From: Elsinoe ampelina
Lineage: Eukaryota
Reading direction: 5' to 3'
Assembly (NCBI GenBank): GCA_010093995.1
Contig: ML992512.1
Location: 529,736 to 574,182, forward strand
Length of the DNA: 44,447 bases
Shown here: positions 5,427 through 31,500 of the stretch, piece by piece
Numbering within the stretch: the stretch's first letter is position 1
Layout: each line of letters starts with the position of its first letter
Position numbers and translations under genes: made by a program
Notes under the pieces: model-generated
Databases searched by the model: none
What the model saw: the letters and a program-made list of their open reading frames with translations, nothing else
What the model was told of the DNA's origin: nothing

Positions 5427-7480
5427 ATGGCAGGCGGTCTCTCAGTAAGCCAATTGCGTGGTATTGAGCGTAACTTGCAAAAGACGGTGGTAGATTGCAA
5501 TGACAGGTGTCTATACAATGCTTCGAAATGGTCTGATCATTTTCCTCGTGCCTCATCTTGACATCGCTGATGGTAAGCAGGGCCGCGGAGCTGCTCAATT
5601 CATTTCCAGACGAGTTTGATCGAGACTCGGAGGATGATACGGACATCGAAGATGCAGACGACGAAACCTCCAAGGACAATGCATCAAGACCGACAGATGT
5701 GCAGGAAGCAAAGCTGCAGCGGCGAGAGCGTAACAAGTTTATGATGGCAAAGTCGTTCTTCGATTGCAAGGAGTATGATCGATGTGCTGTAACACTATTG
5801 CCAACACTGCTTCCTCAACAACCGATCAATCGAGATCCTCCAGTACCCGTGACGCCAGGCAAAGGCAAGGTCAAAGTTACTGCGTCCCCTAGACCACCTC
5901 GAACATGGAAACCAGATTTGCCAGAGATGAGCCAACGATCGCTCTTTTTAGCACTCTATGCTCGATACATTGCGGGTGAGAAGCGAAAGGAAGAAGACAG
6001 TGAGATGATTCTCGGGCCCTCAGATGGCCCAGTCACAGCAAACAAGGAGCTCTCTACCATAGCTGGTCTATTGGAAGACTACTTCAAGCAACGTGAAAGC
6101 GAACAACCAATCAAACGAAAGTCAGACGGCTTCCTAGAATACCTGTACGGCATCGTCCTCGTCAAGTCTCGCAACGAAGCCCTTGCCAAACATTGGCTTC
6201 TTCGCTCTGTCACCCTCAACGAATGGAATTGGTCGGCCTGGGTGGAGCTCGGCTCTCTCATATCCACGGTCGAAGACCTAGCAGCCATAACACCTCACCT
6301 TTCCCCCGGCCTCCCCTCCTTCATCTTCCAGATTTATATCTCTCAAGAACTATACCAAACCTCTGCAGCTCTTTACAACCGCCTCGACACCCTCCTCAAC
6401 CTCTTCCCTACCTCTGCCTTCCTCCTCACCCAACGCGCCCTCCTCCACTACCACGCCAAAGACTTCGACACCGCGTCACACATCTTCTCCAGCCTGCTGA
6501 CCACCCACCCCTACCGACTCGACAGCATGGAAATCTACTCCAACATCCTCTACGTGCTCCCCACCTCCCGCCCGCGTCTCTCCCACCTCGCGACCCTCGC
6601 CTCCTCCACCGACCGCTTCCGCCCCGAAACCTGCGTCATAATCGGGAACCACTACTCCAAGTCCTCCGAACACGAAAAAGCCGTCATCTACTTCCGCCGC
6701 GCCCTCGCCCTCGACCGCACCTTCCTCTCCGCCTGGACTCTAATGGGGCACGAGTACATCGAGCTCAAAAACACCCAAGCGGCCATCGAGTCCTACCGCC
6801 GCGCGGTGGATGCGAATCGCAAGGACTACCGCGCCTGGCACGGCCTCGGCCTTGGGTACGAGTTAATGGACATGCACTCCTACGCGCTGTACTACTACAA
6901 CAAAGCAGCTGCCCTCCAGCCTTGGGACCCCAAGATGTGGGCCGCGGTGGGGTACAGCTATGAGCGATGCGGCAAGGCGGAGAACGCGATCCGGGCGTTC
7001 AAGCGCGCTCTCGGAGCGGCGAGTATGCTCGACTCCCCCAATGCGGGCGGCGCGGGGCAGGGCGCGAGTTTCAACACCAACTCGTCCGGGGAGACGGATC
7101 CGTTGGCGGCGTGTGTTGGGGGGAGGTTGGATCCGGACGTGCTCCATCAGATCGCGTTACTGTATGAGGGCCTGGACGAGGTGGGGGAGGCGGCGGCTTA
7201 TATGGAGCTTTGTCTTGCGCAGGAGGAGGGGGCGGAGGAGGACGAGGGCGTAGGAGCAGGGACCGGCGCGGGCGCGGGACTGGGGGTGACGTTGACGACG
7301 AGTAAAGCCCGGCTGTGGCTGGCGAAATGGGCGTTCAGTCGGGCCGAGTGGAAGAGGTGTGTGGAGTTGGCGAATGAGTTGTGTCAGGATGGGTTTGAGG
7401 TGGAGGAGGCGAAGGGGTTGATCAGGGATGTGAGAGGGAGGATGGGGGCCGAAGGAGGGGAGGAGAGTTTTCTTGGTTAG
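5427..7480 (+). CDS. CDC23: Anaphase-promoting complex subunit 8 (Cdc23/Cut23); exons 5427-5530, 5581-7480
   Basis: Spliced N-terminus ...DRCLYNASKW|AAELLNS, AKSFFDCKEYDRC, and a TPR array including AWTLMGHEYIELKNTQAAIESYRRAVD and DYRAWHGLG. Confidence 0.96.
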
Positions 7481-8982: not shown

Positions 8983-10935
8983 CTACGACGGTCTTGCTGC
9001 TCGCTTGCTGCCAGATGACCTGAATTTATTAGTCCATGTTGCATAGCGGCTGCAAGACAAATACTCACATGCTGATTCTCCTGGCGATACCTTGCACCTT
9101 GGTGTCATTGTCTGCATCCTTGACCGCCTTCTTGAGAGCTTCCTCCCTCGTCTGTGCGTGACTCCTTTCGACTTCATCGTGGCTCGGAGGAAGTCGCTCG
9201 TTCTGCAGATCCACCTTCCTCGCATCTTCAAAGTTGGTGATGGCTGCCTTGATGCCCTCTGCTCCCAACATGAGGGTCCCTGCTGGTAGACGGCCGCCGC
9301 TTGCAGTCTTGAGCTCGGTAACGCTCTCAGATTCCTCACGCAGGACCTGGAAGACACGCGACAAACGACCAATGGCCAGGATCTTGTTCTTGATGGCACG
9401 ACGCTTGTACTCTTGACTGTCCGGGTCCATACCAGCCATATTCGGGTTGATCGGCGGAGAGGAAGGACCTGATGATAGAGGTGTCTCATCGTCAAGCTCC
9501 TCCTTGGAGCATGTATTCAGAATTGCAATAAGCATGTCAGTGATCTTCTCGCCGACAAAAGGAAGCGACCATGTAAAGACATCCATGAAGTTGGGCAGCC
9601 AGTACGGATGCGGTGTGCAGTTGAATTGCCGAATATTCATGACATTGTTCTCGTACTTCAGCACCGCTGCTTTGTTGTTGTAGACATCGAGGTAGTTTGG
9701 GGCTGAGAAGATGGTCATGACCGAGGGGAAACCAGTTGTCCGTGTCTTGCGGTACATCCTGTAGCCAGCGTCCTGCGCTTCGTGTGCTCGGATGATGGAA
9801 AGAAGGTTATTCTTTTCCAAGAATGCGCATGCAGCGGGGTATGAGAAGAAGTAAGAGCATCCTCGGACATGGTTATGGATGAAGTATTCCTGCGTCTTTT
9901 CCTGACCAAAATCTTCCAGCGGATCTGCCCAAAGGATATCGCACATGAGGCCGTGTGTGGGGGGTTCGCGGAAACGGTTGATCTGGCCGATTTGTTAGAA
10001 TATGCATTGAAAGCTTGGGACAGATGACCTACGCTCTTCAAATCCTCGAGGGTGTGCAGCTCCGGACTCAGACCACCATGGATGCAAAGGAACTGTTTGT
10101 TCATGACTGCGGCCAGAGGCAGAGCACAGAAAGACTCCATGCATGCCTCGTACACGGCTTCTGAGTACTTGTGTTTGCACTCGAGCTTGAAAGTAAAGTA
10201 GTCTGTCAAGTGGCGACACTCGTGGTTGCCTCGAAGAAGCCAGAGAGTGTTTGGGTACCAGATTTTGAGCGACCAGAGGTAGAGGACACACTGTGGATAG
10301 TCAGTCTTCGCTGCAGTGCAGTAAAAAAGGCCGGCACTTCCGTACCTCTATACTGAAGTATCCTCTGTCCACGTAGTCTCCCAAGAACAAATATCTTGTC
10401 TCTGCTGGATCACCTCCAACTTCGAAGAGCTTCATCAGGTCAAAGTATTGTCCATGAACATCACCGCAGACTGTGATGGGTGCATCCATCTCCAGCAGAT
10501 TCGGCTCTTCACTCAACACCTCTGTGCCCTTCTTGATGATCCACAAGGCTTGATCCTCGGTCAGCCTGCCCTCGCGGTAGAAGTGCTGTTTCAGAAACTG
10601 AATGTTTGGCTTGGATCTGTCTTGGGGGGAGAAGAACTGCTCGTCGGTAGGGGTGTGGAATGCCGGAGCTTGTACATCTACGGTCTCGTCAGCGCTTCTG
10701 CTCGCCAAAGATGTTTCTGCGAAGGCTGTGTCGTGTGCTACTATCTTTCTGTGTGAAAGAGATTGTACTGAGTCGTGAACGAACCTTTGCAGACTCGTTC
10801 AAGAGTGCTGACTTGATTGCCGTCCTCCATAGTATGCAGGGTAAAGTCGATTTCCGGGATTGGCCTCTTGTTGGTGACCGCCCTGACCGCGGAGTCGATG
10901 TACTCCCGGTCCTGGCCAGGTTGAGAAGTATCCAT
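8983..10935 (-). CDS. cnaA: Calcineurin catalytic subunit A (PP2B), about 563 aa; exons 10785-10935, 10346-10677, 10033-10290, 9069-9982, 8983-9019
   Basis: GDVHGQ, GDYVDRG, RGNHE, SAPNYLD, CnB-binding [23 protein letters not shown], CaM-binding [15 protein letters not shown] and autoinhibitory [16 protein letters not shown]. Exon lengths sum to 564 codons. Confidence 0.98.
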
Positions 10936-12090: not shown

Positions 12091-13416
12091 CTAGGACAGG
12101 TGTTGAGCGCCGTGGATGTGACGGGCGAGATGCCTCTTGTTCTTGGACTTGGCCCAGGTGATGGCGCCTTGTGAGCACATGGTGCCTGGAGCGACGGCCT
12201 GGGCGATGGCGCATCCGTTGTAGTCGCAGATACCGAAGTGGTTGTCATCGACGCAGACGACGCTGTTCACGCCGATGCAAGAGACGCTGCCGGCGGCGCA
12301 AGAGCCAGCGGTGGCAGATGGCATGGGGAGGGAGACGGCGCCAGTACCGGTGCTGCCAGCCTTGGTCTTCTTGGGCTTCTTGGACTTGGTGGTCTTGGTA
12401 GCGACGGGTCGCTTGCGGATGGTGCTAGTGTTGGGGCCGCCAGTGGTGCCTGGTGCAGCAGCGCTGGTCTGGAGGGTTGTGGATGGCTGGGAAGGAACAG
12501 GAGCCTGGCTGCTCGGTGCTGAGTCGGATGAAGGAGCAGGGGCAGCAGCAGAGGTGGTTGCGGGCTGGGAAGGAGCAGCAGCGGAGGTGCTTGGCTGAGG
12601 AGCACCAGTGGCATAGCTGCCAGTTGGGCATCCATCAGGAGTCTTGAGGGGGTAGTCGGAGGCAGAAGCGATGCGCATGTTGGGAGAAGCGACCTTCTTC
12701 ATGGCATACTTGCCTGGATTGGGAAAGCCGACGTTGGTCATCTCGGTGGTCTTGCAGGTACCGCCACCGACGGAAGCAAGGTTGGCGACGAACATGGGAG
12801 GGAAATCCTGGAGACCGGAGGCATCGGAAGCACCACCCTGGATGTTGACGGCAGCGCAGTTCATGTACATCTCGCGGTTGCCGATAGTGTTGAACCAGGT
12901 CCAAGCGAGAGTGGCCTGGCCGGTTTTGACACCCTCTGGGATAGTGAAGCGGAAAGCATTCACACAGTCGTAGCCGTTGGTGGTGGCGTCGCTGCACTGC
13001 CAGGAGCCGCTGTAACCACCGGATGGACCCTGGTAGCTGTCGGCAAGGTTGCCCCTGGAGTTGGTGGGGCAGCCTCCCTCAATGGAGTAGAGCACCCTCC
13101 AGCTATTAGGGTCCTTGAGCTTGGCTGGGTCGGTCTCGTAGGTGATGGAAACCTGGCAAGAACCACCGCCGTGGACGGCAGTGTTCTCGTGGGAGGCACC
13201 GGAGTCGAAGATCAGATCCTGCTGAGAACCGACAGCCATGTCAACACCGCCAGCTCCGGGAGGTGCGACGCCGTGGCAAGGGAAGTCAGACCCAGAGGGG
13301 TCGAGAGGGTTCTTGATCGCATTGCCCTGGATTGGCTTGGGCACCTGCATGAACAAGTGGGCGGAGGCGGAGGAGATGAGGGCGAATGTCGCCGCAGCAG
13401 TGGTAGCGTACTTCAT
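12091..13416 (-). CDS. AA11 lytic polysaccharide monooxygenase (chitin-active family) with S/T/P/A linker and C-terminal Cys-rich (X278-like) module, 441 aa
   Basis: Signal peptide MKYATTAAATFALISSASA followed directly by His1, second His in AVHGGGSCQ and axial Tyr in WTWFN..GNREMYMNCA. The true start is 13416, not 13668. Confidence 0.92.
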   Translation of the reverse strand: MKYATTAAATFALISSASAHLFMQVPKPIQGNAIKNPLDPSGSDFPCHGVAPPGAGGVDMAVGSQQDLIFDSGASHENTAVHGGGSCQVSITYETDPAKLKDPNSWRVLYSIEGGCPTNSRGNLADSYQGPSGGYSGSWQCSDATTNGYDCVNAFRFTIPEGVKTGQATLAWTWFNTIGNREMYMNCAAVNIQGGASDASGLQDFPPMFVANLASVGGGTCKTTEMTNVGFPNPGKYAMKKVASPNMRIASASDYPLKTPDGCPTGSYATGAPQPSTSAAAPSQPATTSAAAPAPSSDSAPSSQAPVPSQPSTTLQTSAAAPGTTGGPNTSTIRKRPVATKTTKSKKPKKTKAGSTGTGAVSLPMPSATAGSCAAGSVSCIGVNSVVCVDDNHFGICDYNGCAIAQAVAPGTMCSQGAITWAKSKNKRHLARHIHGAQHLS

Positions 13417-16254
13417 GTTGAAGATCTTGTGTGAGGTCTGAAAAATGAATGTGCGAATATCACCAGGATAGTCGAAGAGGAGTCTGTGCGACAAGGGCCG
13501 GCCTTGAAGAGAGACTGAAGGAGGGTTTGAGAAAGTGTAAAGAGTGTGTGAGTGTCTACTCAAAGGAGGTGAGGATGGATGGAATATAAGCTTTCGATGT
13601 GAGTCGCTGGAGCTATAATGCGGTGCGAGTGGATGCCTGGTCTCAGGTGCTTGGTGAGTGTTTGACAATGGGAGGTCAACAATGACTTTGTTTCAGTGAA
13701 TGGAATGTGTGAATGAATGTGGGTGTGTCAAAGGAATGACGGTGATTTTGAACCTGCAAAGATCGAGTTTGTCGCGTACGCGCTGGGTGGACGAAAAAAG
13801 AGTGGTCGGCGGGCAGTCGACGTTGTATTATACGATACGGGACGGTGGGCCCACGCGTCTGGAGTCTGGGAGACAGGAATCACAATCCCTTGTCCAGCCG
13901 CCGTTGCGCTCTCCTCGCCCGTCCTGAAACGGCCATGTACATAGTCTGGCCTACATTGTGCGCTGTCCAGGCGCATGAGTGGATGGATGCATCCAAGCAA
14001 GGGGCATACCCGGCATTGACTGGCGTGGACCGAGGGTCCCCGCAGCGCCAGATCCCAGATTCTTTCCCGGTACAGTAGGTACAGCTCACGGCGCTCGCCA
14101 GCATGTGACGATGTGGGCTCTGAAAATTTACAAGCGTGTGCGCCCTTCGCCAATAGCCACCCCGGCTCGCACATGCAACGGACACAGCGGACCAAACGGC
14201 GGGCGCAAGGGCATCCAGAAGACCCCCCATCACATTCTCGCAGTATGAAGTCCACTCGAACAAGCCGTCGTCGAAGCCTCTACTACGCGCCATGTGGTGA
14301 TCGGGTGTTTCAGAAGGCATCTGGCCGACTTGATGGAAGCCAATTCCCCTGAACCAAAGAACAGGCGGACCCAAAGTCTACCAAAGTCTCCACTTTCTGG
14401 GAGCAGATCCTCCAGCGATCACAGAATTTGGACTGCGCAGGGGTATGCACTGGCGTTGACATTCGTCCAATCACACCCGCGCCCGCTCCTTCTTTTTCCA
14501 CGGCTTGTGGCTCTAGCTTCCGCATCCAGGAACACTTTTCGAATCCCTGTCCCTCCATTGGTTCTCACAATTTCATCCCATCCAGACGGACACTCCTCAC
14601 AGACGTATCAGATATCCCCCGTCCCTGCGAACGACAGGGCCTTATTGCTACCTCACGTACCTCTTGATCACCTATCAACCCCAGCGCACATGCATTACCT
14701 TGGACATCCTCCCCACGAAAGCCATAGAACCTTCGGCGCATCCGAAATGATGACTGGTTGGTACAGTACCTACATCCTGGCCCATCTTCAGAAGCCGTGG
14801 GACTGGGATCCGTGTACAGTAGCGCCGACCCTCTATGCGGCCGGGTCGTCTTCCATGCATCATTCTGTGCCGTTGACCGTAGCTTGCATCGACCCATCTC
14901 GAGCAGGAAAAGGACATGGCCTGTTTCCACAGCCCAGGCGCATCGCGGTACTCTCCCGGCCACATCCAGCTCGCACAACGCGAGACCGTTGATCTGCACA
15001 GCCTGAACACGACAGACCGTTTCGTCGTCGCCGTCAACAACGCGAGAACGATGAGCAACACGACTGGCGTGCTCGGCCGCACAGCCGAATACTCTACGTG
15101 CTGAGAGTCCGACTGCTAGCCCTCGGTTGTGTCACAGGGTTCATCGTTGTCCCGCCACAACCTTCCGATGCCAGGGATGGACGGTACGTGCCCCATCTCA
15201 CTATCGACAGGAGTGTTTCTCATCTATCGATTGTCCTCGCGCACAAGCTTTACCGTGACTACCATACGATACAGTAGTGAGTAGACTATGTGCAGCGCAA
15301 TGTAACGTCGTCGGCATCGGTGAGTTGGTTGTTCCCTGCTCCTGTCATTTCATCGTATGCACTAGCACTCGTCATCTGAATGATCGCGACAAATCCTTGT
15401 TGGCTTCCTTTTTTTCCTTCGCGCGCGGAAATACGGATCTTCGTCCTGCAGCGCCGCTGGCAGGCGGGCTGGCAGGTAGGGCTGGATGCTGACGAGATGT
15501 TGCTGCAACGGTCGACCGTCGCCCGTCGCCTTGGTGCTCGTCATGACTTGCTCCGGCGGCAGTCTCTTGCACTTCTGCCTTTGTTCGTGGGTTATTCTAC
15601 GGTGCATACCAGTGGCTGGACGGCCTCTGTCATGGAGGGTAGTGAGGCTGGCGATACGAAGGCACCTCTACAGTACACCAACCTGTCAAAATGTCATGAC
15701 AATCTTTGTCAAAGTCGTCGGTGGCACGACGACCGCAAGAATGGGCCGGGCTTTGATCCTTCGGCCTGGATCCCCTCGTACTGTTACCCCTTGCTGCTTC
15801 GCCGTTGATACCCTCCAGCATGTCCGTTGCTGCTGCAGTAGTCCAGCCACTTGGCCACGTCAGATGATGGGCAGACTTGAGGGAGGACTGTTACAACAGG
15901 TGAGGTGCAGGTTGGGGATCTATTTCTGGTGCGAGAGATCGGGGCGTCGATGGCTTGGGCATCGTTGGATCGTGGGTGGCGGACAAGCATTGAGGCGAAT
16001 TCACGATAAGTTGTCTGGCTTTGCACATTTTGTCCCTCTTCTCATGGTCACATTGCAACACTGAGGAATAGTGTTTGCCACATGATGAATTTGTTTTGCT
16101 GGCTGCCCATGTCGGCAATGCTGCCTATGTCGCAATCGTCTTGCGCCGCAACCTGCTTCTTTCGCTTCGATAGTGTACAACTCATGCTCACTGCCTAGCC
16201 TAGGTCAACGAGCTCAGCCATTCCTCCAAAGGCGTGGGACAGCCGCTTGCGACT

Positions 16255-18535
16255 CTAGTCCTCAGCGTCCAGCATCACAAAATCGTCGTCGTCCATGTCG
16301 TTTGCTTCTCCATGCTCGACGAAATCATACTCATCTTCTTCCTCGCTTTCCTCTTCGACCATCCTGTAGTCCTCCTCTCGGTCATCCTCGATAGTTATAG
16401 CCGAGTCTTCGCTATTGCCAGGTCGTGTAGAAGCGCCACTGGTCGAAGCTGCGGGTGTCGGTAACATTCTGGGAATGACTACTGCCTCGAACCACCTGAC
16501 TCCATGTCTTGGGACATGAGTCTCTTGCGGCTCTTGACTTTCGTCTGTCCCCTCTTCATCGCTGCAATCGTCATATGCTTGCTCTTGCTGCCTCGCTAAC
16601 CCGTCATGTGCATTTCTTCTCCTCCTCTCCGACTCCTCAGCATGCTGCTGCTGTCTCCCCATTGCTGTCGTCCTCCACCACCTCTCAGTCCCGCTATTCA
16701 TCGTACCTTCGTACTCTGGTCCGATGGCCGTGAACCTCCTCTGTGGCGAGACGTTTTCATACGTGAATTGCCTGATCGCAGCCCTGATGGGATCTTCTTC
16801 GGCGGCGAACATGCTATCCGGACTTTTCAAACCGTATGCCTTTGCGTTGGCAAGCATCTTGTGCTTAAGCTTATCGTCCAGCTGCCAATTTGGCTCGCCG
16901 AAGCCGGAGAGGACACCGAAGAGGAAGGCCTTTGCGATAGTCCGGTCCGGGACTGCCGAGGCTGCGGGCAGATGGTTCTTCAGGATGGCAGCAAAGCGCG
17001 AGGCGAGCGAGAGCCAGTGTGTGCGGGTGAGCTCCTCACGAGGCTTGACGTGCCAGCCTTGGACGATGTCGGAGACGAACTTCGTTATGATCTCCGGCAG
17101 GGAGGAGGCGACAGGAAAGTAAATGGAGAAGACGCTGTTTAGAAGCATGCACACCGCACTCATGGATGCCTCGTCGATGACAGGATGGTCTTGGCGCATG
17201 AGACCACGAACGCGATGTGTAAAGCCAGGGAGCTTGAGATACTGTGGTCGAAAGACAGCGGCAAAGTTGGGGTCGATGTTGCAGATCGCCAGGAAATCGG
17301 CGACAGAGAAATCAGCCAAAATGGCCTCTTTAGGAATTTGGCCCCAAATTAAGAACTCCGACTGTTACATGTCAGCTCAATATTACACAATCGTTGAAAG
17401 AGTGACAAACCATTCCAGCCGGACGCCATCCACCACTTTCATAAGCGCGACGCTCACGAATCTGTCCACTGTAGGCTCGAAGATGATACGCCTTTGACCC
17501 GTCGTGCCCAGCAGCTTGCCTCCCATCGATGACGGACATGCGGAGTGGCTTGTCTCTGGTGGACAGCTTGATCGCTTGTCGGAGCGACCAGAAGAAGTCG
17601 TTCGCGACTGAGATGAAAGGCGATGGTATATTCGAACGATTTACGTGATGCTCGATCGCATTGAACAAGAACTCAGCATCATGCGGGAGCGGTGTCGCGA
17701 TGCCGCCTTTGGTGGACAAGAAGTAGCCAGCGATAAACCCTTTGGTTGCCGGTAGGTTACCTACATGTGTCGCATCTGGATAGTAGAATCTATATACCAG
17801 TGTCGAGGGAGGGGGCTGCGCTTGCTCCCTCAGAGGCGCTCTGTAAGGACCATGGATCATTGCTCTGGTCGCCTCGAGGCGTGCTGCAAGCTGCTCCCGT
17901 GAGGATCGCCCCATGCCAGGTCGATTCGATAATAGACTGAGTGAAGATACGAAGTGACGGGACCTTGTGAAATTCGTGCTCGTTGCCGGTGATCGTCCAC
18001 TGACCGAGCTTTGAGCTGTTTGTGACCGTGGTGTGATCGGAATAGTCATTCTAGAGCTGGCTGCGGTCTGAGATGTTGTAGCCGTCATTTGGATTTGGAT
18101 GTGACTAGTCTGGATGTGGTCCGCTGGTGATTGAGTTGGCAATGAGGAGGTGGGAGCGTCTGCGTTGGCCAACAGTCGCTTCATCTGAGCTATGAGGTTT
18201 GTGGCATGCCTCTCAAGATCGTCGGATGACTGAAGGATACCATCCCAGCTTTTCTTCTGTGGATTGAACTGTTCCCTCCAAGTAGCGTCAAGTCGGCTTC
18301 TCAGCTTTCGTCCAGCGGAGGTGACACGAGCGGCATCCTCAGGAAAGAAATGTGCCCAGAGCGAAGGCACTTGGGTCCAGTCCTTCTTTGCTACATAGAC
18401 AGCAACGTTGAGCGTCAGGCGCTTTTCCGGTGTCCATTTGATTTGAGTCGAGTAGTCGCGGCCGACTCTACGGTAGGCAGATGAGTGCTTCGCATTGCCT
18501 TGAGGCTTCTTGCTGCCTTGTCTGACCCTTCCCAT
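16255..18535 (-). CDS. 743-aa protein with a central ADP-ribosyltransferase-like (DUF7587-type) domain; exons 17411-18535, 16255-17361
   Basis: A 49-bp intron GTTTGT...GCTGAC...CAG (17362-17410) joins ORFs 17372-18535 and 16255-17319 in frame. Motifs LVYRFY, KGFIAG, HVNRSNIPSPFISVA, MSVIDG and spliced GM|SEFLIWGQIPKEAI. Acidic C-terminal tail. Confidence 0.78.
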
Positions 18536-18941
18536 GGCTCTCGTCGATTGCCTGTGGCGGGTTCAAATTTGTTGGCAATATGATTTCGATTCACCCAATA
18601 GTGTAGGTGTGCCGGTCGGGCGGCGTACATATGTGCTTAATGGCAATTGACTTTGGGTAGCTATGAAGCTCCACTCTCTCTGCTCCTCCAAGAAGAACTA
18701 CCTCTTCCTGACCAGGAGTGAGAGCAAGCGCTGGCGGAGCCTTGACACGGAGACGACGATGCTGATGCTCAGAGGAACGAAATTTGGTGCGCTCGTGTGG
18801 AAAGTAGAAGACATGTGAAGTTGATTAAGGTTTCGCCCATGCCAAGCCAGCGGCAGGAGGGGTCCTGTATGATCGACGCCAGGGTATCTATGCGATGATG
18901 TACATAGTGTACAAGTTATGCTTCATATCTCATGAAATTGG

Positions 18942-20323
18942 TCAAGCGGTCCACTCGTCGCCCATCTGAGCGAACTTGAACCAGTTTGGTCTACAATCCT
19001 CCTTGTTAAGCCAGGCCTCACCATCCGTGAATCTGCCAGTGACGCATCCTCGACACTTTGGTGAATTGGGGCAATTGAAGAAGGGGATGTGCTGATAGCC
19101 AATGTCCTTGAACCTAAAATGTGTGTTAGCAACGAAGCCAGCATCGGCAGGACGTGAGAGAGGCTTACCAATGTATCTTGGTCTTATCCTCGAACAGGCC
19201 AAGAGCGATGCTGTGGACAGGAGCGTCCCCCCAGCGTTCGTAAAAAAAGCCACCAGCTCGATCAAGATGCTGGAAGTAGTCCTCATATGGTTTCGATCTC
19301 CAGAAGTTGAGGTCTGCGATCTCGAAATTGCTCCAGAAGTGGCAGGTACTGTAGCCATTTGCCATTCTGTTGTGCTCGGGCCGACGTTCACGATCTGTCA
19401 GCCAATTCATAGCATTATTCTTGTGCTGATATTCGGGATGTGCTGCAATGAACTTGACGGTTTCGGGCCAGAGAGTTGAGATCGACTGAGGAGAATCGTA
19501 GAGATTGATGGTGAAGCCGTAGGTCTTATTGTGATCCTGCATAAAGCGGAAGACATCGTAATCAATGTCACAGAAGAAGTGGACCTTTGGCTCTACTCTC
19601 CAGTAGTATTGCATGTCTTTGAGAGCTTCGTGCTTGTAGAACATGCCAGAATTCCAACGGCACATCTTGTGGTAGCTTTCCATGTGGGCGTATTGCACAT
19701 CTTGCTCAGCTAGTATGTCTGCACTCTCCTTGAACAGGTCATGATTGATCCAGGATGGGGCGTCCCAATGCTCGCGAGGGATTAGCTCGTAGCGGACTTC
19801 GGCCTTTGTCAGACTCCTCGTCACTTCCTTGAATTTCTCGTCGAAAGGCTCATCGTTGAAGAAAGTCCAGGGATAGTTGAATTTATGATTCCATGTCCTC
19901 TCCAGATCTTTCATCGACTGTACTAAATCATTCAATTCGGAGTTCCTGACGAGCGAAAGGATGGTCGCGTTGATACGATCAGACTTTGGGTTGTCCGGCG
20001 CGTAGTTGTTCCCGGACACTCTGGCCAATGGCTCTGGTGGTTCTCCAGTCGCTATTACATGTCAGCAAGTGTACCACGAGGGCAGACAGGCGCATCTTAC
20101 GATCCAGGTTCGGGTCGCGAATCATTTCATCCAGTGCACTCGGCGACTTCTTCGGAAGGTCCAGCGTGGATGGTGCTCGAAAGATCTGAAATACCAGGAA
20201 GAAGAACATCAATAGCGTAGCACCAGCGAGTACGCGAAAGATCTTTGGAACAGGCATCTTGCCACTTCGTCCAGAGGGGTATCCGTTGGCTTCGCCGTAA
20301 TGCTTTGAAGATGCGGAAGACAT
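18942..20323 (-). CDS. GT15 (KRE2/MNT1/KTR family) Golgi alpha-1,2-mannosyltransferase; exons 20101-20323, 19169-20051, 18942-19113
   Basis: Type II membrane anchor, NATILSLVRN, YPWTFFND, SYHKMCRWNSG, YYWRVEP, CHFWSNFEI and GFFYERWGDAPVHS. Confidence 0.95.
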
Positions 20324-21181
20324 TGCGGAGACTGAGATGAGCCCTCAATGTCTCCACGGGTAAAAAGACAAGACCGAAGATGAGGCGGAGGTTTAAGTCA
20401 TGTGTTGCGCAAGCCCTAATGCAAGGTTCGGGCGAACATGTACAAAGACCGCAGAGCTGTCCCGTCTGCTTGAACGGAGATGACGACGCAAAATTACATT
20501 CAGATGAGCTTCTGATTCGAGTTCCTGCTCCGCGCAAATGACGGGATTCATGGCCTTGCCTGTTTCGGCCAAGGCTATCTTCCAACCACGTATGCGATTG
20601 ACAACAAAAAGGACACACGACATCAACAGGATGGCTTTTGGAGCATGGTCTCCATTCGGATCCACATTCTGGACAGATTTATGTGGTGACAGCGCATTTG
20701 CATGTACTGCAATACAGAAGTCACGTGCCCTGAACATCGGCGAAACGTGCATAGAAGAGCGCTGGGCTTGATCGGATGAGGCGCCAATCATTATAGAACG
20801 TCGATTGGTAGATTAAACCGAGCAGACTCCCCTCCCCTCTTCCTCTCAATCATGACTCCTTGAGGTCTTGTCTGTATCCCTGATATGAAACGCACCGCCC
20901 GGTAGGGATATCAGGCAGATGCGCGATTAACGACGGGAGAATTGGTCTCGGAGACATGGACGATCTGACAAAATGTCGAGACCAGTTTGTGTATCAGTTC
21001 AATCATGAAAAGAGCTTGAAGCGACTGTCAGTCTCCTGGTGAAAGAAGGAGGAAATGTAGATTCGCGGCGAAGATTTTATGCCTGGCGGAGGTCGGAGCA
21101 TTGCGGGCTGTGATTGGTCAATTGGCACTGCACCTCGGATGTCTTCAGCTTCGAGGTGCTCCGAGCAGGCCATGTCTTTCA

Positions 21182-23293
21182 ATGCCTTTGCGCCCAGTAG
21201 CGCATGGTGCGCTCAGCATCTGCCCGGATCACATTCTGCAGATGAAAGGCTTCACCATGTCCTCACGCACTCTCACGCCTGGACGGCGAGGATCGCAGCG
21301 GGTCTTACTCCTTCAACGCAGCCGAACACATGCGACCAGTTCTGGTAACGCTTTTTCGACCTATTTTAATGCACACCGGGTAGCCTCCTCACGGCCGAGG
21401 GGCAGTATCAGCGGCAGCTTCTACACACCATCTTATACTCGTCGTATTGTCTCTACAGCATACCGGGCAGCCTCAGTAGACGCTGTTCGTCCTACAGCTA
21501 CATTTGCACCGTTCCCTATCCAAAGTCACAGCATCCCACCTGCTAACGAGCCTCTGCACACGTCGTTACAAGAGCTCAACAATCTTGCTCCAGACTTGGT
21601 TAATCAGTCTCGTCTGCAATTGGCCTTGCGAGGTCTCGAGTCCACATCTCCAACCATCCGCATAGCTATCGTTGGCCTAGGACACGCCGGGGCTCGTAAA
21701 GCGAGGAGGCTGGCACGTCTCTTGGTGGCAGACCCACTTGGCAATGAAACAGAATCGGAGCGACTTCTGGTAGAAGCCGACTCGAGAGACGAAAGAGCGG
21801 TCTTGCTAAGGTACAGCCAAGTCGAAGAAGAGAATGGATTTGGTGGGGTGCGAGGTGGGCCCGAGAACCCGCTCCTGAGGACGGTCGATGTTGACAGCCC
21901 AATACTAAGTCGGAATGGGGTCGAAGTACTTGTCGCTGAGACCAACGGCAACCTTACCCTGCCAGGACAACAATCCGAGGATAATGCTCTTGAGACTGCA
22001 CTGCTCCCAGTGTTGAATAGTCCTCTGGCTGGCTCGGGTCGCGCAGGCTTTGTTCGATTCCCTGTACACAAAGCCATTGTAGTTGCGGAAGGCTTCGATG
22101 GTGCTCTGTTTCTGGCAGAATACACATCTCGAGTCGGAACAAATGAACAGTCAATGATCACCACGGCTTTGGACCTTTCAGTGTCTGACAAGTCGTTGAG
22201 TTCAGACGCGATCAATGTCGGAGCTGCGGAACAGGCTTTGAAGGACTTTAGGCGAGATGTAGGGACTGGTCCACGATTCAGTGAGACATGGCAGAGCAGC
22301 GGCATTGGCGACCTGGCCGATGTTCCCAAGGTGGACCGAACCCGCGCATTACCATTGCCACTCGAACAACATATCACATCGATCCTTTCGTCAAGCGAAG
22401 CAGCGATCGAGAGGTCTCAGGAAGCTGCAGAAAGGGATGTCGCGTCCCGCTCTGTTCCGGAAGAAACCCGCGAGGCGCTCCAGCAAGCTATCACATCCTG
22501 GTCAGAATATGCGCACACCGATTTGCAGGATACCATGGCGGCGGCTTTTGCCTCTGCGACGTGGAGAAGGACTTCTTTCCCGCGAGTACTATGGCGCATA
22601 GATGATGTGTCATTCTCTGCTACACAGCTGCTGCATTCCAACTTTCTTGTCGAAAGCGAGACCTATCTCGCCTTCCTGATCGGACGTATAGGAGAAGCCG
22701 GCTTCTTCAACAAAACACAGACGCCACCAGCGACACCATCATCACCGGCGGAGACAGCCCAAGCGGAGTTCAATCCAATGCAGGGCTTATCTCCAGCTCA
22801 ACTTGCGCAGACAGCGGAGGTGAGGGACAAGGTCAAAGCACAGACAGGTGTAGATCCCTTCGTGAGGAAGCCATGGCCTGTGGGTCTGACTGCTTGTCGC
22901 CACTCGCTTCTGGTCACACTTGTGCCAGCACTACATGCGAGGGCCCAAGCATTGGTACTTCAATGCCTAGGCCTCGTAGGAAGCACTTCAGCACTTGGGA
23001 TCTGGTACATCGTCGCCACAGCAGGCACCGGCATATACGAAGCAGGGGCCATCATTGGCTTGGGTACAGTGTGGGCTCTGCGGCGATTGCAAAAGGTCTG
23101 GGGCGCTGAACGTACCAAGTTTGAAGGGGAAGTAAAAGAACGAGGACGACTCGTCCTCAGCGAAGTCGAAGCAGGAATGCGAAAACGTGTCCGGCATGCA
23201 CAAAGACCACAGATCAGAACAGAAGATCTCGAGAGATGGGCACAAGCACGACAGCTAGTGCAAAAATGCCGCGAGCTTCTGAGCAAGCTCTAA
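21182..23293 (+). CDS. Conserved fungal protein, probably mitochondrial, with two C-terminal TM segments (Mmc1-like)
   Basis: Long intronless ORF. The first ATG is at 21182 and is followed by an R/S-rich presequence-like region. SRLQLALRGLES..IRIAI, VLWRIDDV, a C-terminal TM hairpin and a helical tail. The family name is from recall only. Confidence 0.75.
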   Translation: MPLRPVAHGALSICPDHILQMKGFTMSSRTLTPGRRGSQRVLLLQRSRTHATSSGNAFSTYFNAHRVASSRPRGSISGSFYTPSYTRRIVSTAYRAASVDAVRPTATFAPFPIQSHSIPPANEPLHTSLQELNNLAPDLVNQSRLQLALRGLESTSPTIRIAIVGLGHAGARKARRLARLLVADPLGNETESERLLVEADSRDERAVLLRYSQVEEENGFGGVRGGPENPLLRTVDVDSPILSRNGVEVLVAETNGNLTLPGQQSEDNALETALLPVLNSPLAGSGRAGFVRFPVHKAIVVAEGFDGALFLAEYTSRVGTNEQSMITTALDLSVSDKSLSSDAINVGAAEQALKDFRRDVGTGPRFSETWQSSGIGDLADVPKVDRTRALPLPLEQHITSILSSSEAAIERSQEAAERDVASRSVPEETREALQQAITSWSEYAHTDLQDTMAAAFASATWRRTSFPRVLWRIDDVSFSATQLLHSNFLVESETYLAFLIGRIGEAGFFNKTQTPPATPSSPAETAQAEFNPMQGLSPAQLAQTAEVRDKVKAQTGVDPFVRKPWPVGLTACRHSLLVTLVPALHARAQALVLQCLGLVGSTSALGIWYIVATAGTGIYEAGAIIGLGTVWALRRLQKVWGAERTKFEGEVKERGRLVLSEVEAGMRKRVRHAQRPQIRTEDLERWAQARQLVQKCRELLSKL

Positions 23294-28571: not shown

Positions 28572-31500
28572 ATGAAGTTTGGCAAGTGAGTATCACTTTC
28601 AACATTCAAGATGAGGATGCAAAACGGGCTGACCTTCAACGAAAGAGAGTATCAGAACGAGATCATCCCAGAATGGAGGGTCAAGTACCTGGACTACAGA
28701 GTAAGCGATCCTTCTGCACTCCTACCACAACTGCTCACGTGTCCGCAGACCGGAAAGAAGAAGCTCAAGGCAGTCGGTCGAGCAATACGCAATGCGAACA
28801 AGAGCCCCGGTCATTTCAGTTCAACGCCTGATGCCAATGCGCAAGCACCTGTCTACAGCTTTCTCTCGCGAGGCAACCAAGGCTCAAGCGATGAGGAAGA
28901 TGACGATGTCGAACAAGGCAACAATGACAGGGACACTAACAATTCCGGCCCTGTACCGATCCCGTCTCGTACCGCCACGGAGCATTCTTCGCTCGCGCAG
29001 CATGCGGACAATCAAGGTAGAAACTATGGCGGCATGACAAGATATGGAAGCATCATTGGCACACCACCAGAGGACGACAACGAGCTCAACCAAACCCAAA
29101 GTCGGACGGCCCCGTCACTGCATCTCCCCGGTCCCGCTATGGGCAACGGGCAACAAGGACAACAAAGCAGTCTTCAAAGACCATCACCCGCCGGCCGGTC
29201 AGGAAGCGCACACAGCGAGAACGCTGCGCGTGGCGGATCATTACAACATGCTAAGCAGAGGTCGGACAATCCACACCGCATAGCAAACATGTTCGGACCG
29301 AAGAGAGTCAATTCGCTACCAGGTCCGCCATATGATTCGCCTAGAAGGCCGCTTCGAGAACGCATGTTGAGCTTCAGGTTCCGCAACTCTGCCAACAATG
29401 TATCACCGGATGCTATGCCGCTTGAAGCCTATCGAGAACTTGAGGCTCGCCAGAATGAATTCTTCGAATTTTTGGACAGCGAGCTCAAGAAGATTGACAG
29501 ATTCTACCGCGAGAAGGAAGACGAAGCCACGGATCGGCTCAAGACACTTCGAGAACAGTTGCATATCATGCGCGATCGTCGGATGGAGGAAGTCACTTCA
29601 AATGGTCATTCTAAGAGTCACAGTAAGACTGCGCATGGACAGGCCAACGGGAAAAATAAGGATGATTCCGAGCATGGTACAGATGTGCCGTGGTTGAAAC
29701 CTTTCGAGAGAACCTTTGACAGGGCCTTCGACAAGGCAAAACTTGGTCACGTCGGCAAGACATTCGAAGCGATGAAGGATCTAGGTACACCATCTGGTCC
29801 ATCTGCTGTCGATCTGTATCGTGATTATACCAAGAAACCGACACAAAAAGACGTTTCATACCGGACGGCGAAACACAAGCTGAAGATTGCCCTCGCCGAG
29901 TACTACCGTGGCCTGGAGTTACTGAAATCGTACGCTCTCCTCAATAGGACCGCTTTCAGGAAGATTACCAAGAAGTACGACAAGACTGTCAACGCGCATC
30001 CCACTGGCCGATACATGTCTGAAAAGGTTAGCACCGCCTACTTTGTCAACAGCGAGGTCATTGAAGGACACATGCATGCGGTCGAGGATCTCTACTCTCG
30101 CTACTTTGAGCGTGGCAATCGCAAAGTAGCGGTCAGCAAACTACGAGCCAAGGTCGCCCGAGCTGGAGAGTACAGCTCCAGTGCTTTCAACACGGGTGTG
30201 CTTCTTGCACTGGGGACTGTCTTTGGCGTCGAAGCAATTGTGGATGCCGCAAGATTACTCTCGGGTCCAGATCGCACGTTCACGGTGCAGACCCAGTTTC
30301 TGCTACAAATTTACGGAGGCTACTTCCTGATAGTCCTCCTCGCTCTCTTCTTCTGCTTGGCCTGTCGGACATGGCACAATAACAAGGTCAATTATACATT
30401 TGTTTTCGAGTTTGATACCCGCCGCCAAGTACTCGACTGGAGGCAACTTACACAGGTGAGGCAAATAGCAGCGCTGGAGATTCCCCATTGCTGACCTAGA
30501 CGCAGATTCCTTGCGTTTTCTATCTCCTTCTTGGGCTGATTGGATGGCTCAACTTCCGACAGATAGGTGGTGATGCCATGTACCTGTTCTGGCCGGTCGT
30601 TCTCGTTGCAGCCACGGCGATCATATTGTTCAACCCTCTGCCCATCTTTTATCCCAAGAGCCGTCACTGGTTCCTCGCCACCAATGCAAGTATCCCATTT
30701 GACGACCGTCGAGAATTACCAGCTGATTTCTTACAGTGGCGTCTGGTCTTTTCGGGAGTCTATCCTGTCGAATTCAGAGACTTTTTCCTCGGTGATCTCT
30801 TCTGCTCTCTGACCTATGCCATGGCCAATTTGGAGACATTCTTCTGCCTCTACCACCAGCGTCCAATCTGGTCAAGACCGCCAGTGTGCGGCTCGACACA
30901 CTCGCGGTTGCTCGGCTTTCTCACCTGTCTCCCTGGTATCTGGCGAGCTCTGCAATGTATTCGGCGGTACAAAGACACGCGCAACTTCTTTCCGCATCTT
31001 GTCAACTGTGGCAAGTACTTTTGTACGATCGCCTACTATCTCACACTCAGCCTCTATCGACTGAACCAGAACTCCCACATGAAAGCACTATTCATCACGT
31101 TTGCTCTGATCAACGCACTCTATGTGAGTGTGTGGGATCTGGTCATGGATTGGAGCTTGCTGGACCCGACTGCGAAACATAAATTCCTACGACAAAACCT
31201 GGCATTCAAGAGTACCTATCCCTACTACGCAGCGATTATCATTGATCCGATCATTCGAAACAACTGGATCCTCTATGCTTTCTACACTGAAGATCCGAGA
31301 CACGCGGCGGTTGTGTCTTTCTTTGTGTCCTTTACCGAAGTCTGCCGCCGAGGCATGTGGATGATCTTCCGCGTGGAGAACGAACACTGTTCCAACGTCG
31401 GTCGCTTCCGAGCTTACCGTGATGCACCACTTCCGTATGAGCAGGACGAGGACAAGTCGGCATCTACTACAGTTGTCAGCAGATCACCTGACGAGAGCGG

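What the first reader, a model, noticed from the sequence alone, without database searches (positions are those of the whole stretch)
16255..18535. Split 'hypothetical' ORFs form one intracellular toxin-like ADP-ribosyltransferase protein with an atypical catalytic loop
Seen: a canonical 49-bp intron fuses two ORFs into a 743-aa protein. The region at about 17320-17805 has, in order, LVYR, GF.A, H...SPFISVA, a beta strand (MSVID) and SEFLIWGQIPKEAI. Known: this order matches the R-S-E clade of ARTs (cholera/LT, pertussis, pierisin/scabin: YR..GF..H..S.FVSTS..E.EV..GGIP..I). Seen: the putative catalytic Glu is reached only across the splice junction (GM|SE), so intron retention would delete it. 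The -2 position is Met rather than the Glu or Gln that sets target specificity. There is no signal peptide. The N-terminus (IKWTPEKRLTL..W..W..FF) looks like a Myb/HTH-type helical module, and the tail is acidic. Inference: a nuclear or cytosolic ART or NADase, possibly acting on nucleic acid or chromatin or in fungal immunity/cell death. It is the best candidate here for an uncharacterised system.
Basis: partly seen in the sequence, partly recalled or inferred. Interest (0 to 1): 0.8.

Follow-up and report, generated by a model that had tools for sequence, protein, structure and literature searches.

The report
Fungal intracellular pertussis-toxin-like ADP-ribosyltransferase gene
This is one two-exon gene of the grapevine fungus Elsinoe ampelina whose central domain, so far filed only as a domain of unknown function, is predicted to fold like the enzyme part of pertussis and cholera toxins and keeps their key catalytic residues, so it is probably an uncharacterised enzyme that uses NAD inside the fungal cell.

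Summary
Window 16255-18535 (minus strand) is one two-exon gene. A 49-nt GT..AG intron (17410-17362) joins two ORFs into a 743-aa protein. That protein is identical to the NCBI model BDZ85DRAFT_28781 of Elsinoe ampelina. Assembled contigs from two studies skip exactly this intron.

Residues 244-398 match Pfam DUF7587 (E 8e-29), and the match runs across the junction. An AlphaFold model of the domain (pLDDT 92.3) hits pertussis toxin S1 best (Foldseek E 1.7e-5; VIA Z 11.1). EcPltA, TreX, scabin, LT/CT and pierisin follow.

Among 37 homologues, R249, H297 and S309 are invariant and E377 is kept in 36. The position two residues before the Glu is Q or E in only 3 of 37. No signal peptide is apparent.

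An unassigned helical domain (about 400-577) travels with the ART domain family-wide.

My reading is an endogenous intracellular R-S-E-type ADP-ribosyltransferase or NADase with an unknown target. Enzyme activity, the Myb-like nature of the N-terminus and any immunity role remain untested. No paper naming DUF7587 was found.

The parts
16255..18535 (-). Whole coding region of the 743-aa protein (ATG at 18535, stop codon 16257-16255)
   Evidence: identical to NCBI protein P0003
17411..18535 (-). Exon 1 (residues 1-375)
   Evidence: Pfam DUF7587 profile positions 3-118 on residues 244-368
17362..17410 (-). 49-nt phase-0 intron: GTTTGT...CTGAC...AACAG. If retained, it adds 12 codons and then a TGA stop
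   Evidence: skipped exactly by contigs of runs X1 and X2, from two studies
16255..17361 (-). Exon 2 (residues 376-743 plus stop)
   Evidence: first 23 residues match DUF7587 profile positions 124-146
18146..18448 (-). N-terminal helical module (residues 30-130, pLDDT above 90) with conserved Trp residues. It evolves fast and is found only in a subset of relatives
   Evidence: no Pfam match at E up to 10
17918..18145 (-). Ser/Thr-rich linker predicted to be disordered (residues 131-206)
   Evidence: pLDDT below 50; 32 S/T in residues 131-229
17287..17830 (-). ART-fold domain = DUF7587 (residues 236-400, interrupted by the intron)
17789..17791 (-). Codon of Arg249 (on strand beta-1; the R of R-S-E)
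   Evidence: 37 of 37; falls on PT Arg9 / LT Arg7 by alignment offset
17645..17647 (-). Codon of His297 (invariant His at the end of the helix that precedes the Ser strand)
   Evidence: 37 of 37
17609..17611 (-). Codon of Ser309 (in the strand FISVA, which is followed by a helix; the S of R-S-E)
   Evidence: 37 of 37; strand 307-311 and helix 314-325
17356..17358 (-). Codon of Glu377 (second codon of exon 2, first residue of strand 377-381; the E of R-S-E)
   Evidence: 36 of 37, with one Asp; falls on PT Glu129 by alignment offset
16756..17286 (-). Conserved all-helical C-terminal domain (residues 401-577, pLDDT above 90) that accompanies DUF7587 in most relatives. No known family
16573..16692 (-). 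Long single helix (residues 599-638)
16258..16566 (-). Disordered acidic tail (residues 641-743), 93% identical in E. batatas

Best explanation
The locus is a single expressed two-exon gene for a non-secreted 743-aa protein. Its central DUF7587 domain is a divergent member of the R-S-E (cholera / pertussis / scabin-type) ADP-ribosyltransferase fold.

Inferred mechanism, by analogy with the solved toxins: NAD+ binds in the cleft formed by Arg249 on beta-1, His297, the Ser309 strand-helix element and Glu377 at the start of the strand after the active-site loop. Glu377 promotes cleavage of the nicotinamide-ribose bond. ADP-ribose then passes to an acceptor or to water.

The family does not have the Q/E-x-E pair of the classical toxins. 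It has its own conserved loop, F..GaWrY.G[T/S]xE. The acceptor is therefore probably not the arginine typical of ExE toxins, and NADase activity is possible.

The conserved helical domain that always follows the ART domain is inferred to be the family's substrate-binding or regulatory module. The fast-evolving N-terminal helical module, the basic N-terminus and the acidic tail are inferred to set localisation or partners.

Shown: gene structure, splicing, fold similarity, residue conservation. Inferred: NAD+ binding, catalysis, acceptor, localisation.
For: Gene and splice.

Family: Pfam DUF7587 at 101.1 bits against a cut-off of 27.

Fold: domain model with pLDDT 92.3 and pTM 0.88. Foldseek against the PDB gives 16 matches with E of 0.001 or better; the listed rows among them are pertussis toxin S1 and its E. 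coli relative EcPltA, best E 1.7e-5. VIA against 48,161 chains gives PT S1 Z 11.1, EcPltA 10.8, TreX 10.1, scabin 9.3, LT 8.3, CARDS 7.5 and pierisin 7.1. The full-length model reproduces this (PT S1 Z 11.2, model 241-394 on chain 1-146). The ESM Atlas's own model independently finds enterotoxin-A, pertussis-S1 and scabin-like clusters at TM 0.56-0.62.

Catalytic residues: R249, H297 and S309 in 37 of 37, E377 in 36 of 37. Their places in the secondary structure are as in R-S-E ARTs.

Selection: the ART domain is 95% identical between E. ampelina and E. batatas, against 29% for the N-terminal module.

Intracellular: no hydrophobic N-terminus.

Loop chemistry: in ExE toxins the first Glu is needed for transfer and the second for both NAD+ hydrolysis and transfer (PMC11606950, passages read).
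Against: No sequence-level link to any characterised ART was obtained.
- A profile of the 37 sequences against PDB sequences found nothing relevant at E up to 10.
- None of the 37 members matched a Pfam ART family at E up to 10.
- hhalign of the profile against LT-A gave probability 0.14.

TM-scores to solved toxins are modest, 0.40-0.50.

The residue equivalences rest on alignment end offsets, not on a residue-by-residue superposition, which the tools do not print.

The second Ser of the S-T-S element is Ala311 here (Ser in 22 of 37). The -2 residue is Met. A His that 32 of 37 relatives have before beta-1 is Gln240 here.

No activity, NAD+ binding or localisation data exist. The run types are only guessed to be RNA.
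Confidence: 0.7

Rival explanations
1. It is chiefly an NAD+ glycohydrolase, a NAD-depleting or signal-generating enzyme used in fungal conflict or cell death, rather than a transferase with a macromolecular target.
For: The catalytic Glu is kept, but the residue two before it, which ExE toxins need for transfer (PMC11606950), is Q or E in only 3 of 37 family members. ART-fold NADases and NAD phosphorylases (RES toxins, MbcT) appear among the weaker fold matches at Z 4-5.
Against: The best fold matches are transferases. A conserved extra domain and long lineage-specific modules suggest recognition of a partner. None of the 57 relatives scanned carries NACHT, NB-ARC, HET or a similar death or immunity domain. 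The neighbouring genes are housekeeping genes.
Confidence: 0.2
2. It is a pseudoenzyme or an NAD+/ADP-ribose-binding scaffold that has kept the fold but does not catalyse.
For: The loop before the Glu is atypical. The second Ser of S-T-S is Ala and a widely conserved His is Gln in this protein. There is no sequence match to active ART families.
Against: R249, H297 and S309 are invariant and the Glu is kept in 36 of 37 proteins that share as little as 25% identity. This is hard to explain without catalytic constraint. The deviations of this protein lie outside the R-S-E triad.
Confidence: 0.1
3. It is a toxin or effector that the plant pathogen exports to act on host cells, like the secreted enterotoxin-A-like ARTs of insect-pathogenic fungi.
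For: The fold is closest to bacterial exotoxin A subunits. Secreted LT-like ARTs exist in Beauveria (PMC12099005, passages read). The organism is a crop pathogen.
Against: There is no signal peptide or hydrophobic N-terminus. The protein is 743 aa long, with long disordered regions and an acidic tail. No B-subunit or receptor-binding module was found. The gene lies among housekeeping genes.
Confidence: 0.05
4. The two ORFs are separate genes, or the region is a pseudogene, and the motif order is a coincidence.
For: None beyond the stop codons in the unspliced sequence.
Against: Spliced contigs come from two studies. The Pfam profile runs on across the junction. Orthologues in E. batatas, E. 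australis and Sphaceloma murrayae are full length.
Confidence: 0.01

Closest known systems
Pertussis toxin S1 subunit and E. coli pertussis-like toxin EcPltA
   Same: These are the best structural matches (Z 11.1 and 10.8; Foldseek E 1.7e-5 and 2.1e-4). Arg on beta-1 and the catalytic Glu fall at equivalent offsets. A conserved His lies between Arg and Ser.
   Different: Aligned identity is only 14-16%, with no sequence-profile match. There is no Q-x-E, no signal peptide and no B subunits. The domain sits inside a 743-aa intracellular fungal protein with a family-specific helical domain.
Scabin, pierisin and ScARP (guanine/DNA-directed R-S-E ARTs)
   Same: ART fold at Z 9.3 (scabin) and 7.1 (pierisin), with 19-20% identity to scabin. 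In the ESM Atlas, one bacterial 'scabin-related' cluster has members that carry DUF7587 (50%), Scabin-like (40%) and Enterotoxin_a (30%) hits.
   Different: Those enzymes have Q-x-E (recalled) and are secreted toxins. Nothing here shows a nucleic-acid target.
Cholera toxin A1, heat-labile enterotoxin A, and TreX/Tre1 (arginine-specific ExE ARTs)
   Same: Same fold (LT Z 8.3, TreX Z 10.1). R249 falls on Arg7 of LT by offset. The S-x-S strand is followed by a helix.
   Different: The family lacks the first Glu of ExE (E at -2 in 1 of 37). hhalign against LT-A found no relation.
Secreted enterotoxin-A-like ARTs of entomopathogenic fungi
   Same: They are fungal proteins with an LT-like ART fold (PMC12099005, passages read). 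Zhang et al. 2012 list Tox-ART-RSE in Ascomycota and Basidiomycota (PMC3482391, table passage read).
   Different: Those are small secreted proteins that match known ART families. This protein is non-secreted, has several domains and matches only DUF7587.
Known fungal ADP-ribosylation writers (two PARPs, Tpt1, SirTM Mfs1)
   Same: They are endogenous intracellular NAD+-using transferases. Tpt1/KptA also appears among the fold matches (Z 6.4-9.3, about 92-96 residues aligned).
   Different: Those belong to the H-Y-E / H-H clades or to the sirtuins. A 2026 review states that only these four writers have been described in fungi (PMC13720257, passages read). An R-S-E-type endogenous writer would be a fifth kind.

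Membership tests
Pfam DUF7587 (PF24494) | Profile match above the gathering score | tested here: met
   101.1 bits against a cut-off of 27, E 8e-29, residues 244-398 on profile positions 3-146 of 146. 53 of the 57 other proteins scanned also match at E of 0.01 or better.
R-S-E clade ADP-ribosyltransferases (cholera / pertussis / scabin type) | ART fold | tested here: met
   Predicted model only. Foldseek prob 1.00, E 1.7e-5 to PT S1. VIA Z 11.1, rmsd 2.9, 128 aligned. All 16 rows with Z of 6 or more belong to the ART superfamily.
R-S-E clade ADP-ribosyltransferases (cholera / pertussis / scabin type) | Conserved Arg on strand beta-1 | tested here: met
   R249 in 37 of 37 and in strand 246-251. 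By offset it falls on PT Arg9 (model 241 = chain 1) and LT Arg7 (model 246 = chain 4). Arg9 is recalled; Arg7 is named in the title of entry 1ltg.
R-S-E clade ADP-ribosyltransferases (cholera / pertussis / scabin type) | Ser of the S-T-S strand, followed by a helix | tested here: met
   S309 in 37 of 37, in strand 307-311 followed by helix 314-325. The second Ser is Ala311 here (S 22, A 7, T 5, C 3 of 37). Superposition on the toxin Ser could not be read from the tool output.
R-S-E clade ADP-ribosyltransferases (cholera / pertussis / scabin type) | Catalytic Glu at the start of the strand after the ARTT loop | tested here: met
   E377 in 36 of 37, with one Asp. It is the first residue of strand 377-381. 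By offset it falls on PT Glu129 (model 394 = chain 146; Glu129 is named in the title of entry 7u6z).
R-S-E clade ADP-ribosyltransferases (cholera / pertussis / scabin type) | Q or E two residues before the catalytic Glu (Q/E-x-E of the ARTT loop) | tested here: not met
   Met375 here. Across the family: T 13, S 8, N 5, M 2, K 2, Q 2, and one each of C, R, V, F, E, out of 37.
R-S-E clade ADP-ribosyltransferases (cholera / pertussis / scabin type) | Sequence-profile membership in a curated ART family (Enterotoxin_a, Pertussis_S1, Scabin-like, ART, ADPrib_exo_Tox) | tested here: not met
   0 of 37 members at E up to 10. The profile against PDB sequences found no ART. hhalign against LT-A gave probability 0.14. 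Whether Pfam places DUF7587 in its ADP-ribosylation clan could not be looked up.
R-S-E clade ADP-ribosyltransferases (cholera / pertussis / scabin type) | NAD+-dependent ADP-ribosyl transfer or NAD+ hydrolysis | not testable with these tools
   Needs biochemistry.
Secreted AB-type ART toxins | Signal peptide and a receptor-binding or translocation component | tested here: not met
   The best 10-residue Kyte-Doolittle mean in the first 40 residues is -0.99, and the first 30 residues hold 8 K/R (a simple hydrophobicity test, not a dedicated predictor). No such domain appears in Pfam or the fold searches.
Myb/SANT-like helical DNA-binding modules (N-terminus) | Profile match or three-helix Myb fold with regularly spaced Trp | tested here: inconclusive
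   No Pfam match at E up to 10 for residues 26-130 or in nine relatives; the only hit in that region is a sub-threshold DUF6818 hit in P0008. No PDB sequence match. The model shows helices 36-48, 56-63, 65-70 and 75-90, with conserved W34, W53, W60 and W/Y86. This is compatible with the reading, but the module was not folded or searched on its own.
Fungal NLR / HET-type cell-death architectures | Fusion to NACHT, NB-ARC, HET or repeat sensor domains | tested here: not met
   None in P0003-P0005. None in the 53 DUF7587 proteins among the 57 scanned. The two proteins with other domains (ankyrin; low complexity) did not match DUF7587.

The most novel reading that the evidence does not exclude
DUF7587 proteins would be the first endogenous, intracellular cholera/pertussis-toxin-type ADP-ribosylation 'writers' of fungi, with three further features.
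- They would modify something other than arginine (a nucleic acid or an unusual residue), using a family-specific loop in place of Q/E-x-E.
- The obligatory helical partner domain would choose the substrate.
- A conserved intron placed two codons before the catalytic Glu would let splicing decide whether an active enzyme is made.
Probability: 0.15. Interest if true: 0.85.

Novelty: new variant of a known kind. Interest (0 to 1): 0.6.

Why it matters
A 2026 review of fungal ADP-ribosylation counts only four described writer enzymes: two PARPs, Tpt1 and a SirTM. It notes that further ARTs are only suspected (PMC13720257, passages read).

This analysis makes a whole Pfam 'domain of unknown function' family a testable candidate. 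The family is mostly in Ascomycota according to the Atlas summaries. It would be a fifth kind of writer, of the cholera-toxin type, working inside the fungal cell. The analysis also names the residues to mutate: R249, S309 and E377.

It shows in addition that the ART domain is always followed by a second conserved domain of unknown fold family. That domain is an obvious candidate for substrate choice or regulation.

If the enzyme is active, it opens a new branch of NAD+ signalling or NAD+ consumption in fungi, plant pathogens included. If it is inactive, it is a clear case of a conserved ART pseudoenzyme.

Tried and rejected
Sequence bridges to known ARTs all came back empty.
- Profile of the 37 sequences against PDB sequences.
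- Pfam scan of the 37 members at E up to 10.
- phmmer of exon 1 against the PDB: only chorismate mutase, E 0.11.
- hhalign of the profile against LT-A of E. coli H10407: probability 0.14.

Searches that gave little or could not run.
- The search for homologous proteins with the alignment gave one extra fungal protein. With residues 230-590 it gave only five proteins. Its word index evidently misses this family.
- The search for related loci with the alignment in bacterial genomes could not run: no stretch was conserved enough.
- The bacterial 'scabin-related' bridge seen in the Atlas was therefore not followed up.
- No whole genome is held for this window, so paralogues in E. ampelina were not counted.

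N-terminal and C-terminal parts.
- The C-terminal helical domain gave only weak matches: Z 5.1-5.5 to TERT and eIF2B-epsilon fragments, and Atlas TM of 0.45 or less outside the family. I read these as generic helical similarity.

Expression. No RNA holder is on record for the stretch; run kinds are guesses. Contigs cannot give expression level or the share of intron retention.

Neighbourhood. A weak tblastn hit of one homologue at 22004-22111 (E 0.003) lies inside the Mmc1-like ORF and was taken as chance. No macrodomain, ARH or NUDIX gene was found among the 15 ORFs I selected from the 51 ORFs of 130 aa or more listed for 6-30 kb.

Literature and earlier notes.
- Aravind et al. 2015 (PMC6126934) is not held. 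Whether it already lists this fungal clade could not be checked.
- No paper holds 'DUF7587' or 'PF24494', or 'Elsinoe' together with 'ADP-ribosyltransferase'.
- Earlier-findings look-ups returned nothing.
Full report
**1. The observation.** On the minus strand two long ORFs (stop-to-stop 17372-18562 and 16255-17364) are separated by 49 nt with all the marks of a fungal intron. It starts GTTTGT, has CTGAC with the branch A 10 nt before the acceptor, and ends AACAG. Exon 1 (18535-17411) ends in phase 0 with ...GCT GGA ATG. Exon 2 (17361-16255) begins TCG GAG. Together they give 375 + 368 = 743 residues.

The spliced product is letter for letter a protein already in NCBI and UniRef. NCBI calls it hypothetical protein BDZ85DRAFT_28781 of Elsinoe ampelina; UniRef calls it 'DUF7587 domain-containing protein'. 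So the 'split ORFs' are an ordinary annotated two-exon gene.

Splicing is supported by sequence data. One 4801-nt contig of run X1 (study P1, word depth 71) and one 435-nt contig of run X2 (study P2) skip exactly 17362-17410. The run types are only guessed to be RNA, and the GT..AG skip itself is the argument that they are cDNA. Contigs cannot say how often the intron is retained.

**2. What the protein is made of.** Pfam finds one family, DUF7587 (PF24494), at residues 244-398 with E 8e-29. Exon 1 alone matches profile positions 3-118 and exon 2 alone matches positions 124-146, which independently confirms the junction.

A full-length AlphaFold model, built on 42 aligned full-length relatives (mean pLDDT 73.3), shows these parts:
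- a confident helical module at residues 30-130;
- a disordered Ser/Thr-rich linker at 131-206;
- the alpha/beta DUF7587 domain at 236-400;
- a confident all-helical domain at 401-577;
- a long helix at 599-638;
- a disordered, very acidic tail at 641-743 (27 D/E against 2 K/R in the last 54 residues).

The N-terminus is basic (8 K/R in 30 residues) and has no hydrophobic stretch. No 19-residue window scores above 1.65 on the Kyte-Doolittle scale. A non-secreted, soluble protein is therefore the simplest reading; this rests on a simple hydrophobicity test, not on a dedicated predictor.

**3. Is DUF7587 an ART fold?** I searched 1.84 billion representatives with residues 236-375 and found 57 proteins at E of 0.001 or better. 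From them, and from the two Elsinoe orthologues found, I took the 38 that carry a complete domain and aligned 37 (P0030 was left out). The domain model built on that alignment has pLDDT 92.3 and pTM 0.88.

- Foldseek against the PDB gives 16 matches at E of 0.001 or better. The listed rows among them are pertussis toxin S1 and EcPltA, best E 1.7e-5 with prob 1.00. Cholera toxin A1, MTX, TreTu, LT-IIb, typhoid toxin PltA, ScARP and scabin follow. TM-scores are only 0.40-0.50.
- A search that does not depend on Foldseek (VIA, 48,161 chains) ranks PT S1 first (Z 11.1, rmsd 2.9 over 128 residues). Next come EcPltA 10.8, TreX 10.1, scabin 9.3, a KptA/Tpt1 8.9, LT 8.3, CARDS 7.5, pierisin 7.1, MTX 6.9 and DarT 6.8. 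All 16 rows with Z of 6 or more are ART-superfamily enzymes. The tool's own note puts the typical best Z of unmatched models at 7-8, so 11 is above that but not overwhelmingly so.
- The full-length model reproduces the result.
- The ESM Atlas's own model of this protein finds enterotoxin-A, pertussis-S1 and scabin-like clusters at TM 0.56-0.62. One of these is a bacterial 'scabin-related' cluster in which 50% of members carry DUF7587 hits and 40% carry Scabin-like hits.

Against this, I obtained no sequence-level link to a characterised ART.

**4. Catalytic residues.** In the 37-sequence alignment, where identity to the query goes down to 25%, R249, H297 and S309 are invariant. E377 is present in 36, with one Asp. 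Their places in the predicted secondary structure are those of R-S-E ARTs. Arg lies in the first strand (246-251). Ser lies in strand 307-311, which is followed at once by helix 314-325. Glu is the first residue of strand 377-381, after a less confident loop at 362-376.

The tools give only the ends of the structural alignments, but the offsets agree.
- PT S1 chain 1-146 lies on model 241-394. This puts Arg9 on R249 and Glu129 on E377.
- LT chain 4 lies on model 246, which puts Arg7 on R249.
- Scabin 67-178 lies on model 239-395, which puts Arg77 on R249 and Glu160 on E377.

Glu129 and Arg7 are named in the entry titles shown. The other residue numbers are recalled. The mapping assumes no gaps near the alignment ends.

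**5. The atypical loop.** The residue two before the Glu is Met here. Across the family it is T 13, S 8, N 5, M 2, K 2, Q 2, and one each of C, R, V, F and E, out of 37. The Q/E-x-E signature is therefore absent from the family as a whole, not only from this protein. In its place the loop has a conserved pattern of its own, F..GaWrY.G..E (G368 in 31, W370 in 24, G374 in 33 of 37).

In ExE toxins the first Glu is needed for transfer, and the second for both NAD+ hydrolysis and transfer (PMC11606950, passages read). From this I infer that the family either transfers to an acceptor other than the classical arginine or mainly hydrolyses NAD+.

This protein and its E. batatas orthologue also differ from the family consensus at Gln240 (His in 32 of 37) and Ala311 (Ser in 22 of 37). 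Neither position is part of the triad.

**6. The rest of the family architecture.** The helical domain after the ART domain (residues about 400-590) is recognisably conserved in 34 other proteins of the set. Outside DUF7587 proteins it has no Pfam, Atlas or convincing PDB relative. ART plus this domain is the conserved core of the family.

The N-terminal module is found in only about ten relatives. It has conserved Trp and aromatic positions (W34, W53, W60, W/Y86, W99) on predicted helices. However, it has no Pfam or PDB sequence match, and it was not folded or searched alone. I leave that point open.

Between E. ampelina and E. batatas the regions differ sharply in identity: ART domain 95%, helical domain 86%, tail 93%, N-terminal module 29%. 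Constraint is therefore concentrated on the enzyme-like core and the tail.

None of the 53 DUF7587 proteins among the 57 scanned carries another Pfam domain above its cut-off; in particular none has an NLR, HET, macro or ARH domain. The neighbouring genes are housekeeping genes: APC8/Cdc23, a metallophosphoesterase, a GT15 mannosyltransferase, Mmc1 and an SPX-EXS protein.

**7. Intron position.** Six shorter representatives (P0007, P0008, P0009, P0011, P0045, P0053) lose similarity at the position of this exon junction. They continue with a short unrelated tail that starts with Val, as expected if a gene caller read into a GT... intron. This suggests that the intron two codons before the catalytic Glu is conserved in distant relatives. 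It is an inference from protein models only.

**8. Comparison with what is known.** The protein works like, and by fold belongs with, the R-S-E ARTs. It fails two membership features of the classical toxin families: the Q/E-x-E motif and any curated sequence profile. It also lacks secretion and B-subunit features.

R-S-E ARTs in fungi are known in general terms. Zhang et al. 2012 list Tox-ART-RSE in Ascomycota and Basidiomycota (PMC3482391, table passage read). Secreted LT-like proteins exist in Beauveria (PMC12099005, passages read). A 2026 review counts only two PARPs, Tpt1 and a SirTM as described fungal writers (PMC13720257, passages read).

No paper in the library contains 'DUF7587' or 'PF24494'. 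Aravind et al. 2015 could not be read, and Pfam's clan assignment could not be looked up. Prior recognition of this clade as an ART therefore cannot be excluded.

**9. Verdict.** It is a real, spliced gene for an intracellular protein with a toxin-like R-S-E ART domain and a family-wide atypical loop. It is not a newly found gene, because it is annotated, nor a new family, because Pfam already lists it as a DUF. What is new is the functional assignment and the two-domain core.

I put 0.7 on a catalytically competent NAD+-using enzyme. The rivals are:
- an NADase rather than a transferase, 0.2 (this overlaps with the main reading);
- a pseudoenzyme, 0.1;
- an exported effector, 0.05.

Target, localisation and any splicing control are open.

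Noticed in passing
P0007, P0008, P0009, P0011, P0045, P0053 (representatives): Six truncated gene models of relatives stop being similar exactly at the position of this gene's exon junction. They continue with short tails that start with Val, as if the caller read into an intron. This suggests a conserved intron two codons before the catalytic Glu, and frequent mis-annotation of the family.
   Followed up: partly
P0005 (Elsinoe australis orthologue, 686 aa): One source names it 'ERAD-associated E3 ubiquitin-protein ligase HRD1'. Pfam finds only DUF7587 in it, with no RING or HRD1 features at E up to 1. The name looks like an annotation error.
   Followed up: partly
window 18146-18448 compared with 17287-17830 (residues 30-130 and 236-400): Between E. 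ampelina and E. batatas the N-terminal module is 29% identical while the ART domain is 95% and the acidic tail 93%. This is an unusually steep contrast within one orthologue pair: either very fast evolution or module replacement at the N-terminus.
   Followed up: no
window 16756-17286 (residues 401-577): A confident all-helical domain follows DUF7587 in 34 other family members and has no Pfam family of its own. It is a candidate for a new domain definition.
   Followed up: partly
window 12091-13692, minus strand: An open frame of 533 codons with no Pfam match at E of 0.001 or better. It was not examined further.
   Followed up: no
window 5537-7480 (+), 9065-10347 (-), 19165-20061 (-), 21020-23293 (+), 28590-30494 (+): The neighbours are ordinary housekeeping genes: APC8/Cdc23 (E 3.9e-84), a metallophosphoesterase split over two ORFs, a GT15 alpha-1,2-mannosyltransferase (E 1.6e-113), Mmc1 N and C domains, and an SPX-EXS protein. 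No ADP-ribose eraser gene lies nearby.
   Followed up: yes
run X1 contig: The 4801-nt spliced contig runs about 2.2 kb beyond window position 18700, into the region of the same-strand GT15 gene. Adjacent transcripts may overlap or may have been merged by the assembler.
   Followed up: no
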